Shown one piece after another: positions 6,001 through 12,000 of a stretch of 64,000 nucleotides of DNA (the first letter of the stretch is position 1; every line of letters starts with the position of its first letter). The stretch comes from Podarcis erhardii (taxonomy: Eukaryota). The position numbers are program-made. The stretch lies in the NCBI GenBank assembly GCA_964252035.1, contig OZ176206.1; one strand, 5' to 3'.

Positions 6001-9000
6001 GGAGCAGTCACAAAGAAGAAACCTACAACACAAAAGTTGGACATGACTCATACCCTAGTTCATACTTAGGACAAAACCTCCACACTCCCTCCTGCTTCAC
6101 ACCCAGAAAAGTTTCCTGCAGGGTTGGGCTCTCAGTCCAGGGACATGAAGGTGCTTTCACTTCCACCCGTCCAGACTGATTTTCCTTTGCAAATATTGAT
6201 AGTCAACAATCTTCAAATCATACATGCATGTTTATTATTCTTCAATATCTTCCTTGCCATCTTAATTGGAGCTTTCAGCAGAAAGGTAACAGCTAAAAGA
6301 AGGAGGACAACAAAGCAGTCAAGACCAGCTTAAACTGGACAACCTTTTATTCTCAGCCATTGCTAACCATCTGGTAGAACTGATGGAGTCACAAAATGAT
6401 CAAGTCAATGGAGCAAGTAGCGAATGTTGCACAGAGATATCTGTTAGGAGATTCCTGCACTGCAGGGGATTGAACTAGATGACCCTCATGGTCCCTTCCA
6501 AATCTATAATTCTATGATTCTAAGAATGTAAGGTCCAATAAATTCCACAACTGCCTCACTGGCAATTTCATTTCCCAGAAGGTGGAAGAAGCAACTAGTG
6601 GGTCATATCTCTTCGTCCTGGTCCTCACCAACAGGAACTGATTGATGAAGTGGAACTGCTTGGAAACCTGGGAGGAAGTGATCATGCCCTGTTGGGCTTC
6701 ATTATACACAGGCGAGGGAATTGCACTCTGGCCAATTTCAAGAAGCGTAAGGAGCTACTGGGTGAGATTCCATGGTCAGCAATATTCAAAGAGAAGGGAG
6801 TCCAACATGGATGGGAGTTTTTTAAAGGTGAAATGTTGAAGGCCCAAATGCAGACAATTCCAACAAGAAAGAAAAGTGGGAATTACCTTTTAAAAAGTGT
6901 GGCTGTGTAAGCACTTTCAGATGAGCTGAGAAGTAAGAAGGGCATGTATAAGAAAACGAAGAAAGGAGAGATCACGAAGGAAGAGAATACACGAGTAGCC
7001 AATAGTTGCAGAGAGAAGGTCAGGATGGCTAAAGCTCAAAATGAGCTTAAGAGGTTAAAATAATAAAACAGGTTTATTCGGCTATGTTCAGAGCAAGAGG
7101 AAAAACAGGCAAGTATTAGATCCTCTACGTGGAGAACATGGAGAATTGCTACTGGGTGACAAAGAGAAGGCAGAACTGCTCAACACCTACTTCACTCAGA
7201 AGGAAAGCAGTGCCCAACCTGGTGATAACAAAATAAGCAATGCAAGGTGGGAGCTGCAGCCTGAGATAGAAAAAGAGGTGGTAAGGGAGCACATAGCGAC
7301 TATGAATTCAAATCTCCAGGGCCTGATGAGCTGCATCCAAAGGTACTAAAGGAGCTTGTGGATGTAATCTCAGAGCCTCTGCCTATAATCTATGAGGACA
7401 TTGGAGAACTGATGATGTTCCTGCGGATTGGAAGTAGGCGAATCTTGCCCCCATCTTCAAAAAGGGTGGAAAGAAGAACCAGTCAGCTTGACATCAGTAC
7501 CAGGGAAGGTCCTAGAACAAATGATTAAACAGTTGGTATGTGAGTACTTAGAAAAAGATGCTGTGATTACTATGACCCAGAATGGGTTTCTCAAAAACAA
7601 GTCATGCCAGACAAATCTCATTTCTTTTTGTGATACTGTTACAATCGTGGTGGATCAGGGGAATGCGGTGGACGCAGTGTGCAATTTGGATGCTTTAGTT
7701 AAGATTCTTGCATTGCAGGGGTTTAGACCGGATGACCCTTGGGATCCCTTCCAACTCTACACTTCTATGATTCTATGAACTTGAACTTTTTATTTTCTGC
7801 AAACAAATCAAAGCGGCTAATAATACAAACATCCAAATTGCATGTGTGTGTGTGTGAGCATGTGACTGCAGCCTCCAATCCCCACTCCTTGGGTCTCATC
7901 CCTTTGGTCTGAAAATGTTGCCATAGGTATTCCATCTGCCACTCTCTGCTTCCTAATCTGTGGGCCATCCACAACAGACCTTGGAGGAAGTTACTTGCTT
8001 AGTAAACTGGATGTTTCCCCTTGTACTGTGGTGTATGGATCTGGTATGTCTCTCTGTGTGTGTCTGCGTATTTTGCAAAAAAAAAAAAAAGTAGACGATG
8101 AAGGAGGAGGAGGAGGATGTTCATTATTGAAATTGTATGATCCCATATGTGGCTTTCTTTTCGGGAAAGGGTACCCTGCTTGCTCCTTTGAGCCTGGATG
8201 GAGCACATGTTTTTTCACAGTGAAGCACGGAGGAACTCAGTTGTCCAGATAGATAATACTGAACTTGTCAAATCTCTGAAGATCACATCAAAGAGGGAAA
8301 AGGCTTGTTCTCTGTTGTTGTTGTTGCTGTTGCTCCAGAGGGAAAGCAGGGTCTAGATCCCATGACCTGAAGGGGTGTGTGATAGGTGCGGCCTGCCCCA
8401 GGTGTCATCCCTGAGGGGGGGTGACATTTCCGCCCTGCCCCCTGGGACACTCACCGTGGGCGGCGCCCCCCTGGGATGCTCGCCACTCACTGTGGTTGGC
8501 ACCCCCTGGGACTCTCGCCCCGCTCCTGTGGGCGGCTAGCCCCACCCCTGGGTGCACAGCATGTGTGCTGCTCTGGGTGCCAGAGCAGCTAGCTCCGCCT
8601 CTGCTGAAGGGTAGATGTTGGTTGAACATCGGGGGCCACTAGGGGGCGCATTGTAAGATGGCTGACAATACCATCTCTCCGACCCACACGGGGTAATTAA
8701 GAGGCTGTTATGGGAGTAGACAGCCTCCCTTGTTGCCCCAAGGAAATGGGGAACACTGCCCTTGCCTGCTGTGCCCATAAATCACCCCCTAATTCGAAAG
8801 AAGGGGGTGAGGGCCCTAGGCAGAATGCCCCCGTGTGGACCTCGGCTCTCCTGGACGCTGTCTCTGATCGCGCACTAGTTGCAGCAATTTGGAATAATTA
8901 ATTACAAAAGAAGCAAATGCACATATTTCAAGTGAAGAAGGGGAGTGAAGTCTGCTAATTTAAGTGACCTCTGCGAAAGAAGACGACGGGTTGGAGAAAC

Positions 9001-12000
9001 AGGAATATTTTACGATGAAGATACACCAAAGGCTGGGTATGTTGACAACGGGACTGAATGGGGGGGGGAAACCTTTTTTACTTTCCTTCTATGTGATTTA
9101 CAAGAACCCCTCCTTATTAGAATCGTCGGTTGAACTGACCCAAGCAGGATGATTAAGGTCTGTGTGGAGATAAACTTTAACCAAAAGTATGCTTTATGGA
9201 GATCGAGAAGCAATAAGAGCTTTTGGGAATGGCACAATTAATTCGGAGTCGCCATCTTGCCAAAGGATTTATAGCCGGGAGGAAGAACGGACTTGTTTTC
9301 AGACTGCATTCCTAATGAATCTCCTCAGAGGTTTTGAGAAAGGAGGCAGATTGGTGAAGATTAATGACGCTAAGACTGTTTTGATGTATGGAAGTGATGT
9401 TATATGGAAAACGTCTGGATATGGCTACTGGATAAAAAAAATAATATCCATGCAGGATTACAAACTGTTCTAACCAGCTTGCGGAGATTATCAGAGGTCA
9501 CAAAGAGAAAGGAAAAATATATGAAAATAACAACAAGAGATGTGGAAAAACAATAAGAAAGGACTGGATAGTACTATGAACATCATAAGGTTAGATTTGT
9601 GGACATTAAAACAGCAGTAAGAAGCAAGAAGTTGATTGGATCCCCTTCGGAACTTGAAATATGGGTACCCCCAACAAAAATTTAAAATTCGGCTGTGTAA
9701 TTTGGAATTTATGTAATTTGGTTTGATTTGATGTGATTGGTTGGTTAATAAAAAATTATTCTTAAAAGATGTTGGTTGAACATTAGGTAGAACTGCTTGC
9801 TGGGAAGAGCCGTTGGACATGGGCACCAATTTCATGGGGGAGAACATGTAGGCTCTCCTTGGCTGCCTGCCTTCAAGCAGAGGCTAGGCAGCCCCTCTTT
9901 GATCTGGTGGGGATGGATGCTTCAGTCCCAGCCTCTTGCACTGAGTATCAGAATGTGTGTGTGTTGAATTCCCAAGTGGCCTACATGCCCTGCCCCTCAG
10001 AGATTCTGCAATTGGTCAATCTTAATCTGTCATGAAGGTCAGTGATCAAACACACAGTTCTCCAAGAATCTGTCTACCTTTACATATTTCATAATTCAGC
10101 ACCCAATGGCACTTGTTTCTGTATATTTGAGAATTTGATAGTTGGCACACAAGGTTATCTGGCACTTGATTCCCTGGCAATATTTGCTAGTCAACAGAGA
10201 ATACTGCTTGATAAATGACACCACCAGAAACTGCCTGAAAGCCAAATTTGGAAGTCAATTTTTTAGGTAATAACCAGCACAAAAGAGTTGTGCCTGGAAA
10301 GGGGATGACCATCCATGGAACTGTCTAGAAACTGGTGAGAGGTGCTTCTTTTATCCTGGAGGGTATGTGCAGAAGATCAATGAATCAAGATAATCTTTCC
10401 TGATAAAATCATTGCCCCAAAAGCCACAGAAAGAGCATTAAATGCCTTTTAGTTCTCCCAACCTTCCCCACCAAAAGTCAACTACAGTGGTGCCTTGGTT
10501 CTCAAACTTAATCCGTTCCGGGAGTCCATTCGACTCCTGAAACTGTTCAAAAACCAAGGAGCGGCTTCTGATTGGCTGCAGGAGCTTCCTGCACTCAAGT
10601 GGAAGAGGCATCGGATGTTCAGCTTCCAAAAAATGTTTGCAAACCGGAACATTTTCTGGGTTTGCAGAGTTTCGGAGCCGATTTGTTTGAGAGCCAAGCT
10701 GTTCGACTACCAAGGTACCACTGTACAAGTACCAAATACTGTATAAGTACCAAAGTACAGTGGTACCTTGGGTTAAGTACTTAATTCGTTCTGGAAGTCC
10801 GTTCTTAACCTGAAACTGTTCTTAACCTGAAGCACCACTTTAGCTAATGGGGCCTCCTGCTGCTGCTGCGCCGCTGGAGCACGATTTCTGTTCTCATCCT
10901 GAAGCAAAGTTCTTAACCCGAGGTACTATTTCTGGGTTAGCGGAGTCTGTAACCTGAAGCATATGTAACCCAAGGTACCACTGTATAAAAGGTGCCTGTA
11001 ATTTGGCAGGTTTCTTACCAAGGAACAGGTTTCTTGTTTATGCTGTTTTTATACATATTGCCTATAAAACAATACAGGTGATTAAAGGAATATATTTTTT
11101 TAACTACAAATTTGTAAGGTTGCCATTGCAGAAAAAAATGCTACCAATATCTTTCTGAAAGTTGGCACAATTCACCTCCTCAGAAAGGGCAACCATGCCT
11201 TCAAATTTCATTCAATCATGCCAACAAATTAAAAAAGTTAAAGACAGGGGTTTTTTGGGGGGGGTATTATGAATATTAATGATTAATAATTTGATTTTTA
11301 GCCTGCCCTTCCTCTCACAGCGGCAAACGACAAAAAGCAATAACAACAATGCAAAGTATTTAAAAGCATTTTAAAACTTCCTACTAAAACTTTAAGGTGC
11401 CCAACATAAAAACCGTGGGCATATTTGACTATAATCATGCAGTTACTATCAACCGAGCAGGGGCTAATATCCCTGCAAATTTCACCCGTTTTCCAGGTCA
11501 GGATTTGTATTCAGACCTCGATCTCTGAAGTACCTTGGGCCAAATCTTGCTCTTTTCTAAAGCACTGAACTGGGGTCTGAACCAAGTAGCGTGGCTGGCA
11601 CTTGCTCCTAATATCCAGTCCCAGTAAGTAATAGGCAACACAGACAGATCTAACTGCATGGGAAGAGACGTCAACATCATTTTTAAACACAGAGCGCTTT
11701 CCAGTAATTCAACAAGGGAGAGCCATCCAGGCCCTCGTGCCCAGACCCATTCCATAGCCTGTGTGTACACCAGCCCCAGTCTAAGAAACCCTGGGGCTCA
11801 CAACACAACCTGCGCCAAAACGTGACCCTCTGTCCTCTGCGGCACATGGGATTAGGAGAGACTCCGCTGTGTGCCAGGATCAACACCCGTTGGCAAGGCA
11901 GTGTGCCAGGGCTGTGCCACAGGGCCCCTGCTGCAAGGGCCCAGCTCCCTTCTCTTCCTGAAGGGCAACGTGCTGGCTTTGGAGCCTGGGGCAGTGGAGG

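What the first reader, a model, noticed from the sequence alone, without database searches (positions are those of the whole stretch)
8630..9766. Young, ORF-less 1.1-kb retroelement with L1-like 5' tip and 3' tail: candidate non-autonomous L1 parasite family
Seen: a perfect 17-bp TSD, a G-run start followed by AAGATGGC (8655-8662), a T/G-rich 3' UTR ending AATAAA plus a short A tail, many intact CpGs relative to the flanks, and no RT/EN/ORF1 motif (longest ORF 94 aa). Known: L1 TPRT gives 7-20-bp TSDs, and mammalian L1 5' ends carry a YY1 site (CAAGATGGC). Inference: it was transcribed from its own internal promoter and retrotransposed whole, so it is a long non-autonomous element rather than a 5'-truncated LINE. 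I could not place it in a named family.
Basis: partly seen in the sequence, partly recalled or inferred. Interest (0 to 1): 0.7.

Follow-up and report, generated by a model that had tools for sequence, protein, structure and literature searches.

The report
Non-coding retrocopy with CTCF-site tip
A 1.1-kb stretch with no gene in it was copied from an RNA and pasted into this vertebrate genome by LINE-type machinery, an ordinary kind of event, and it cannot be shown here whether it belongs to a self-spreading family.

Summary
Window 8630-9766 (1137 bp) lies between two perfect copies of a 17-bp sequence that occurs nowhere else in the 64 kb. It starts with C+G5. It has its only AATAAA 14 nt before its end and finishes in 3-4 A. 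Its CpG observed/expected ratio is 0.56, against 0.23 for the window. No RT, EN, ORF1, tRNA or Rfam signal was found.

It is a target-primed retro-insertion of a non-coding, polyadenylated, probably Pol II RNA. Two other inserts in the window have perfect 17- and 18-bp duplications and A-tails, so this machinery was active here.

The "L1-like 5' tip" is weak. No published L1 5' consensus matches it. Instead the tip carries an exact canonical CTCF site followed by a YY1-like core.

Three near-identical variants of its 95-108-aa ORF exist in public read assemblies, and nothing else resembles it among 1.84 billion proteins. Those variants could be other copies, the same insertion in relatives, or a source gene.

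Family status could not be tested: no source genome, Dfam or Repbase was available. Interest is modest.

The parts
8613..8629 (.). Left copy of the 17-bp target-site duplication, AGATGTTGGTTGAACAT
   Evidence: Only two occurrences in the window.
8630..9766 (+). The inserted unit: 1137 bp, non-coding, with an A-rich and C-poor sense strand (A 32%, C 17%, G 25%, T 26%)
8630..8889 (+). GC-rich 5' module: 57% G+C, 10 CpG. Composition then shifts to about 37-41% G+C for the rest of the element.
8634..8649 (+). Canonical CTCF-site sequence GGCCACTAGGGGGCGC, at +5 to +20 of the element
   Evidence: It is the only match in the window to a recalled CTCF consensus: 1 found, 0.09 expected, and 9 of 100 shuffles reach 1. 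It is identical to the 16-bp CTCF gel-shift probe of PMC3945225. Its first 14 letters match the site that PMC5694663 calls canonical (one passage of each paper).
8655..8662 (+). YY1-like core AAGATGGC, at +26 to +33
   Evidence: The motif's meaning comes from passages of PMC5381506.
9149..9473 (+). Stretch shared with three ORF variants from public read assemblies (P0001, P0002, P0003). In the window copy it is split over two frames (9149-9241 and 9189-9473).
9250..9273 (-). Antisense TATAAA (9273-9268) lying 8 nt upstream of CAAGATGGCG (9259-9250). This is a promoter-like arrangement by motif only.
   Evidence: No functional evidence.
9707..9738 (+). T/G-rich short tandem of ATTTG / ATTTGATGTG units in the 3' region
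9747..9752 (+). The only AATAAA in the element, 14 nt before its end
9764..9766 (+). A tail of 3 nt, or 4 if the first A of the duplication is counted
9767..9783 (.). Right copy of the 17-bp target-site duplication

Best explanation
The insert is a recent, full-length target-primed reverse-transcription (TPRT) insertion of a 1.13-kb non-coding RNA, mobilised in trans by an L1-type LINE.

Shown: the insert is bracketed by a perfect 17-bp duplication. It ends 14 nt after its only AATAAA in a short A run. It encodes nothing recognisable. It contains six runs of four or more T, which by recall would stop Pol III, so a polyadenylated Pol II transcript is the likely template.

Inferred: a LINE endonuclease nicked the bottom strand at ATCT/ACCC. 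The freed 3' end primed cDNA synthesis near the start of the poly(A), which would explain the very short tail. The second nick, 17 bp away, gave the duplication.

Further inference, my preferred reading but unproven: the RNA comes from a small, young, low-copy lineage of non-autonomous retroposons. Each new copy would carry its promoter-proximal module (canonical CTCF site at +5..+20, YY1-like core at +26..+33, CpG-rich first 260 bp) and so could be transcribed again.

My confidence that it is a TPRT retro-insertion of a non-coding RNA is about 0.85. My confidence that it is a self-propagating family is about 0.4. The figure given for this field is for the whole statement.
For: - Perfect 17-bp duplication, unique in the window.
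- Single AATAAA at 9747-9752, and an end in A.
- No Pfam domain in 13 ORFs, 0 Rfam matches at E<=1, 0 tRNA-like genes, six T-runs of 4 or more.
- Two more inserts in the same window carry perfect 18-bp and 17-bp duplications and long A-rich tails, at nick sites TCTT/AA and TTTG/AA. L1-type TPRT with this duplication length therefore operated in this genome.
- PMC5381506 (passages) states that L1 of all vertebrates studied ends in AATAAA plus poly-A.
- For a lineage rather than a one-off: CpG observed/expected is 0.54-0.56 along the whole length, against a window median of 0.17. That is unusual for the body of a methylated single-copy host transcript.
- Three further ORF variants exist on 8 read-assembly contigs whose longest lengths are 972, 1037 and 1261 bp, close to the unit's 1137 bp.
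- Two variable characters (a one-base frame difference in front of the shared block; T or I at one position) occur in all four combinations among the four sequences.
- Two of the window copy's private differences are of a kind that CpG decay would produce. I inferred this from the window's codons at those sites and the variants' residues; I did not see the variants' DNA.
Against: - No second copy or fragment in 64 kb; the best non-self blastn hit has E = 0.21.
- Only 3 variants on 8 contigs in a collection of about 15 billion proteins, and no diverged relative among 1.84 billion representatives. An abundant or old family should leave more.
- The 5' ORF (8701-8898) and the antisense ORF (9494-9883) found no relatives. 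None of 7 window ORFs is in the collection as an exact sequence. Sharing is therefore shown only for 9149-9473.
- The tail has 3-4 A, against 14 or more in the two neighbouring inserts.
- The nick site ATCT/AC fits the recalled L1 preference (TTTT/AA) at only 3 of 6 positions.
- The tip matches no published L1 5' consensus.
- The last 137 nt fold no better than shuffles: z = +1.93, and 198 of 200 shuffles fold at least as well. There is no sign of a LINE-specific 3' recognition stem.
Confidence: 0.4

Rival explanations
1. One-off processed retrocopy. A host lncRNA, an orphan mRNA, or the non-coding part of one was captured once by L1 machinery. The read-assembly variants would then be the parent gene's transcript, or orthologues or alleles of this same insertion, and there is no self-propagating family.
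For: - The same TPRT hallmarks apply.
- Anolis holds 404 retrocopies of protein-coding genes, so lizard LINEs do capture host RNAs (PMC3136929, passages).
- There are very few variants and contigs, and no diverged relatives.
- Contig lengths of about 1-1.26 kb fit a transcript as well as they fit a collapsed repeat.
- A GC-rich first 260 bp followed by an AT-rich body is what a CpG-island first exon spliced to later exons would give.
- By recall, YY1 and CTCF motifs just downstream of start sites are common in host promoters.
Against: - CpG observed/expected is 0.54 in the AT-rich 737 bp beyond the first 400 bp, against a window median of 0.17. That is high for a methylated host transcript body.
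- No conserved ORF or protein homologue was found.
- The AlphaFold2 model of the 108-aa ORF is poor: pLDDT 53.8, pTM 0.37, single sequence.
- The four-combination pattern among variants is easier to explain with several copies. Recurrent one-base length change could also produce it.
Confidence: 0.35
2. Internally deleted autonomous L1: a 5' UTR joined to a 3' UTR with both ORFs lost. It would spread because it keeps the ends of its parent.
For: - The sense strand is A-rich and C-poor.
- PMC5381506 (passages) describes Anolis clade-1 L1 5' UTRs of about 1.3 kb with about 45% G+C and CpG islands, and 3' UTRs with T-rich repeats ending in AATAAA. The element resembles that in architecture.
Against: - The tip matches neither Anolis 5' consensus nor the mammalian one within 3 mismatches.
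- No L1 fragment in the window shares sequence with it.
- The 3' end of the L1-type insert at 35556-35702 aligns only through low-complexity letters.
- No L1 consensus of the source species was available, so this is a weak test.
Confidence: 0.12
3. A 5'-truncated LINE or other retroelement, of which only a long 3' UTR was copied.
For: 5' truncation is the commonest outcome of TPRT (recalled). No coding sequence is expected if the 3' UTR exceeds 1.1 kb. PMC5381506 reports 3' UTRs of up to 2-2.7 kb in some families.
Against: - The 5' end falls on a G-run, a canonical CTCF site, a YY1-like core and the CpG-richest module. That looks like a transcript start, not a random break.
- No longer protein contains the ORF.
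Confidence: 0.08
4. Not an insertion: a chance direct repeat, or an assembly artefact.
For: None beyond the single observation.
Against: - Twenty shuffles give 0-2 exact 17-mer pairs each.
- The repeat brackets exactly a unit whose composition and CpG content differ from both flanks and which ends after a polyadenylation signal.
Confidence: 0.03

Closest known systems
L1-mediated processed retrocopies (processed pseudogenes and lncRNA retrocopies)
   Same: Both have a variable-length target-site duplication (17 bp here). Both end after AATAAA in A's, lack coding capacity of their own and are mobilised in trans.
   Different: No parent gene is known and no conserved ORF was found. The A tail is only 3-4 nt. 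CpG content is high throughout.
Long non-autonomous L1-dependent retroposons of primates (SVA, LAVA); only the listings of PMC3287187, PMC5174737 and PMC7353768 were seen
   Same: Kilobase-sized, non-coding, Pol II-type, polyadenylated, flanked by a duplication and CpG-rich.
   Different: No VNTR and no SINE- or LTR-derived modules: no long internal tandem repeat and no Rfam match. Copy number is unknown. There is no sequence relation.
Vertebrate L1 elements as described in PMC5381506 (passages)
   Same: AATAAA at the 3' end, T-rich repeats in the 3' region, an A-rich sense strand, a CpG-rich 5' part, and a YY1-type core near the 5' end as in mammalian L1.
   Different: No ORF1 or ORF2. The 5' tip matches none of the three published 5' consensi. 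The YY1-like core sits at +26, not near +13 as recalled for human L1.
CTCF-site-carrying SINEs of mammals (such as rodent B2); recalled, no paper read
   Same: A retroposon that carries a canonical CTCF motif.
   Different: Those are short, high-copy Pol III elements. This one is 1.1 kb and Pol II-type, with unknown copy number and no binding data.

Membership tests
TPRT (L1-type) retro-insertion | Direct target-site duplication of about 7-20 bp immediately flanking the insert | tested here: met
   Perfect 17-bp duplication at 8613-8629 and 9767-9783, unique in the window.
TPRT (L1-type) retro-insertion | 3' end formed by a polyadenylation signal followed by a poly(A) tail | tested here: inconclusive
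   AATAAA lies 14 nt before the end, but the tail is only 3-4 A. The two neighbouring inserts have tails of 14 or more.
TPRT (L1-type) retro-insertion | First-strand nick at a T-rich/A site (recalled preference TTTT/AA) | tested here: inconclusive
   The inferred nick is ATCT/AC, which fits at 3 of 6 positions (read). The neighbouring inserts give TCTT/AA and TTTG/AA.
Non-autonomous retroposon family | Several dispersed copies with shared termini and different flanks and duplications | not testable with these tools
   No second copy in the 64 kb. Three ORF variants sit on 8 read-assembly contigs, but their DNA and flanks cannot be seen. No source genome, Dfam or Repbase was available.
Non-autonomous retroposon family | Promoter carried within the element | not testable with these tools
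   Motifs only: a canonical CTCF site, a YY1-like core and a CpG-rich first 260 bp.
Non-autonomous retroposon family | Ends shared with an autonomous LINE partner | tested here: not met
   The Anolis clade-1, Anolis clade-2 and mammalian L1 5' consensi have no match at the tip within 3 mismatches. The 3' end shows no real similarity to the L1-type insert at 35556-35702. The test is weak because the partner of the source species is unknown.
Autonomous LINE (L1, CR1 or L2), truncated copy | Remnant of RT, EN or ORF1 coding sequence | tested here: not met
   0 of 13 ORFs gave a Pfam family above cut-off. The ORF has no relative among 1.84 billion representatives apart from itself. As a contrast, a CR1/L2-type RT remnant is detectable at 13473-13685 on the minus strand.
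SINE (Pol III retroposon) | Head derived from tRNA, 7SL or 5S RNA; no internal Pol III terminators | tested here: not met
   0 Rfam matches at E<=1, 0 ARAGORN genes, and six internal runs of four or more T.
Processed pseudogene of a protein-coding gene | Recognisable homology to a host protein | tested here: not met
   The searches with two other ORFs were empty. A non-coding parent is not excluded.

The most novel reading that the evidence does not exclude
A young, lineage-restricted, kilobase-sized retroposon family of a non-mammalian vertebrate whose transcript begins with a canonical CTCF site followed by a YY1-type core. Each L1-driven jump would then plant a fresh, unmethylated CTCF/YY1 module. 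That would be a Pol II, non-SINE counterpart of the CTCF-spreading SINE waves known from mammals, and it also carries an antisense TATA plus YY1-like arrangement.
Probability: 0.15. Interest if true: 0.6.

Novelty: new member of a known kind. Interest (0 to 1): 0.3.

Why it matters
As it stands this is one more LINE-mediated retrocopy, which is an ordinary event. It would matter more if genome-wide searches show many copies. It would then be a long non-autonomous L1 parasite outside primates. It would also be a vehicle that spreads canonical CTCF/YY1 sites, which could be tested with copy counts, empty-site alleles and CTCF binding data. Together with the two other perfect-duplication inserts, it also indicates recent L1-type activity near an FHOD1-like gene.

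Tried and rejected
- Second copy in the window: blastn with word size 7 found nothing better than E = 0.21.
- RNA families and tRNA-like heads: none found.
- Pfam on 13 element ORFs: nothing.
- Protein searches with the antisense ORF 9494-9883 and the 5' ORF 8701-8898: no hits. Only proteins of 71-228 and 36-116 residues were candidates.
- Exact look-up of 7 window ORFs: 0 of 7 are in the collection.
- Full HMMER scan with P0001: it found only itself.
- AlphaFold2 on P0001: pLDDT 53.8, so no fold search was run.
- Folding the last 137 nt: no stable structure.
- Aligning the 3' end to the L1-type insert at 35556-35702: only low-complexity agreement.
- Published L1 5' consensi: no match at the tip. 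The 8 hits lie elsewhere in the window, against 6.44 expected by chance.
- Host gene around the insert: 6 of 144 ORFs of 103 aa or more hit Pfam, all of them formin (FHOD) domains at 24-54 kb on the minus strand. I sent 150 of the 165 ORFs of 55-102 aa in 1-24.5 kb, and 1 hit, an RT remnant. 0 of 147 ORFs of 30-54 aa in 1-12.5 kb hit. The local gene context stays unknown.
- Literature: searches for a lizard non-autonomous L1-dependent element, lacertid transposable elements, and CTCF-bearing retroposons in lizards listed nothing that describes this element (listings only). A 27-nt string of the tip occurs in no held paper. A recalled CTCF consensus string occurs in none either.
- Rejected readings: solo LTR, DNA transposon and Helitron. 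There are no terminal inverted repeats or TG..CA ends, and a 17-bp duplication does not fit them (read; the criteria are recalled). An endogenous viral mRNA copy is also rejected, because there is no protein homology.
- Not used: the collections of prokaryotic genomes, phages, plasmids and E. coli cannot hold a vertebrate repeat.
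Full report
**1. What is there**

Reading 8400-10000 and an exact-match script show the 17-mer AGATGTTGGTTGAACAT at 8613-8629 and 9767-9783. It occurs nowhere else in the window on either strand. The repeat finder lists it as family D10, one of 13 direct-repeat families; most of the others are microsatellites or short tandem arrays. Twenty mononucleotide shuffles of the window gave 0-2 exact 17-mer direct pairs each, so the pair is not chance.

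The bracketed unit is 8630-9766, 1137 bp.
- It begins with C and then G5.
- Its only AATAAA is at 9747-9752, and it ends 14 nt later in AAA.
- It holds 27 CpGs, observed/expected 0.56. The flanks give 0.27 and 0.29 and the window 0.23.
- Only 21 of 593 equal-sized windows that do not overlap it reach 0.56. These lie at 52.6-54.1 kb, the 5' end of the formin gene, and at 62.4-62.8 kb.
- The first 260 bp are 57% G+C with 10 CpG. The rest is about 37-41% G+C. The whole sense strand is A-rich and C-poor.

**2. What it does not contain**
- Thirteen stop-to-stop ORFs from both strands gave no Pfam family better than E = 0.064.
- Rfam with permissive filters gave 0 matches at E<=1 over 8300-10100.
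- ARAGORN found no tRNA-like gene.
- Six runs of four or more T lie inside. By recalled knowledge these would terminate Pol III.
- The last 137 nt fold no better than shuffled sequence: z = +1.93, and 198 of 200 shuffles fold at least as well.
- blastn of the unit against the window found no second copy or fragment; the best non-self hit has E = 0.21.

**3. The ORF and its relatives**

The 99-aa open frame 9174-9470 hit one 90%-identity cluster from read assemblies. The cluster has three members:
- P0001: 108 aa, 1 contig, 1037 bp.
- P0002: 95 aa, 6 contigs, longest 1261 bp.
- P0003: 108 aa, 1 contig, 972 bp.

The alignment shows the following.
- The window's other-frame ORF 9149-9238 is identical to the first 26 residues of P0001 and P0003. 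The shared DNA therefore spans at least 9149-9473, with a one-base frame difference between variants.
- Two variable characters (the frame, and T or I at one position) occur in all four combinations among the four sequences.
- The window copy has private changes: one residue where the others have two, V to M, and T to M. Two of these are of a kind that CpG decay would give. I inferred this from the window's codons and the variants' residues, since I could not see the variants' DNA.

A full HMMER scan of 1.84 billion representatives with P0001 found only P0001. An AlphaFold2 model of P0001 is poor: pLDDT 53.8, pTM 0.37, single sequence. The ORF is thus an orphan that tolerates frameshifts, and most likely it is not a gene.

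Searches with the antisense ORF and with a 5' ORF were empty. None of 7 window ORFs is in the collection as an exact sequence. Sharing is therefore documented only for about 325 nt.

These variants may be paralogous copies, the same insertion in other individuals or species, or a source gene's transcript. I cannot tell which, because the contigs themselves are not readable here.

**4. The 5' tip**

Passages of PMC5381506 give three 5' consensi:
- mammalian L1, which includes the YY1 site CAAGATGGC;
- Anolis clade 1;
- Anolis clade 2.

None matches the element's tip within 3 mismatches. The 8-mer AAGATGGC occurs 7 times in the window against 3.57 expected. The "L1-like tip" therefore reduces to a G-run and a common 8-mer.

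- It is the only match in the window to a recalled CTCF consensus: 1 found, 0.09 expected.
- It is letter for letter the 16-bp CTCF gel-shift probe of PMC3945225.
- Its first 14 letters are those of the site that PMC5694663 calls canonical (one passage of each paper).

Inside the element, on the minus strand, TATAAA (9273-9268) lies 8 nt upstream of CAAGATGGCG. These are motifs only, with no evidence of function.

**5. The machinery**

Two other inserts in the window show the same kind of event.
- 35556-35702 carries a microsatellite, AATAAA and a long A-rich tail between perfect 18-bp repeats. Its inferred nick is TCTT/AA.
- 55816-55896, in minus orientation, carries a long T-run next to perfect 17-bp repeats. 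Its inferred nick is TTTG/AA.

An L1-type TPRT machinery that makes 17-18-bp duplications was therefore active in this genome. By contrast, the only reverse-transcriptase remnant in the window is of CR1/L2 type, at 13473-13685 on the minus strand.

The element differs from its two neighbours in two ways: its 3-4-nt tail, and its poorer nick site (ATCT/AC). I explain the short tail by priming at the start of the poly(A). This is inference.

**6. Context**

The window holds an FHOD1-like formin gene on the minus strand at about 24-54 kb.
- Its first coding exon matches human FHOD1 structures 6xf1 and 3dad, with 34 of 55 aligned residues identical by my count. I therefore do not take the contig for human.
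- The exons were scanned one ORF at a time.
- No exon was detected within 4 kb of the element.

**7. Verdict**

This is a real, fairly recent retro-insertion of a non-coding, polyadenylated RNA, made in trans by L1-type machinery (about 0.85).

Whether it is a self-propagating non-autonomous family (about 0.4), a one-off retrocopy of a host non-coding transcript (about 0.35), or an internally deleted or truncated LINE (about 0.2 together) cannot be settled. The source genome, Dfam and Repbase were not available. The metagenome and viral contig collections and the papers' supplements were closed. The literature searches (listings only) found no description of it.

It is a new member of a known kind, of modest interest. 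The canonical CTCF site at its tip is the one feature that would make a genome-wide count worthwhile.

Noticed in passing
window 35538-35720: A 147-bp insert at 35556-35702 carries a (TATGTAT)n microsatellite, AATAAA and a long A-rich tail. It sits between perfect 18-bp repeats AAGAAAAAGTGGCCTCTC, with inferred nick site TCTT/AA. This is a textbook L1-type insertion, either a truncated LINE 3' end or a short retroposon.
   Followed up: partly
window 55799-55913: An 81-bp insert at 55816-55896, in minus orientation with its T-run tail at the left, sits between perfect 17-bp repeats AGGGAAAGATCCCTTTG. The inferred nick site is TTTG/AA.
   Followed up: partly
window 12500-14100, minus strand: A decayed CR1/L2-type LINE. 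Pfam RVT_1 matches 13473-13685 at E = 3.8e-6, below the gathering score. Typical RT motifs, broken by stops and frameshifts, are visible in the translation.
   Followed up: partly
window about 24000-54000, minus strand: An FHOD1-like formin gene: the GBD exon at 53518-53847, FH3 exons at 32.5-33.1 kb and FH2 exons at 24.0-26.5 kb. The N stretch at 25124-25251 lies inside it and was left alone.
   Followed up: partly
window 8448-8543: A 36-bp GC-rich tandem repeat (2.7 copies, 73% matches) lies about 70 bp left of the insertion site.
   Followed up: no
window 9250-9273, minus strand (inside the element): TATAAA lies 8 nt upstream of CAAGATGGCG on the antisense strand. This is a promoter-like arrangement reminiscent of an antisense promoter, by motif only.
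   Followed up: no
window 62400-63900, and 10700-10990: Same-size windows starting at 62.4-62.8 kb have CpG observed/expected of 0.56 or more. This region and 10.7-11.0 kb hold repeated units sharing the 19-nt core CCAAGGTACCACTGTACAA (copies at 10710, 10970, 62932 and 63093). It may be another young interspersed or tandem repeat.
   Followed up: no
window 5644-5704 and 7068-7128: Two 61-nt direct copies, 92% identical and 1424 bp apart. They are unexplained and could be repeat ends or two copies of one interspersed element.
   Followed up: no
window 7690-7780: An interspersed repeat of about 80-95 bp with five more copies in the window (near 6.45, 16.3, 24.6, 49.4 and 57.7 kb), 74-85% identical. 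It is SINE-like.
   Followed up: no
window 2000-4400: A block of 60-67% G+C with long open frames on both strands and no Pfam match. No same-size window starting there reaches a CpG observed/expected of 0.56, unlike the formin 5' end at 52.6-54.1 kb.
   Followed up: no
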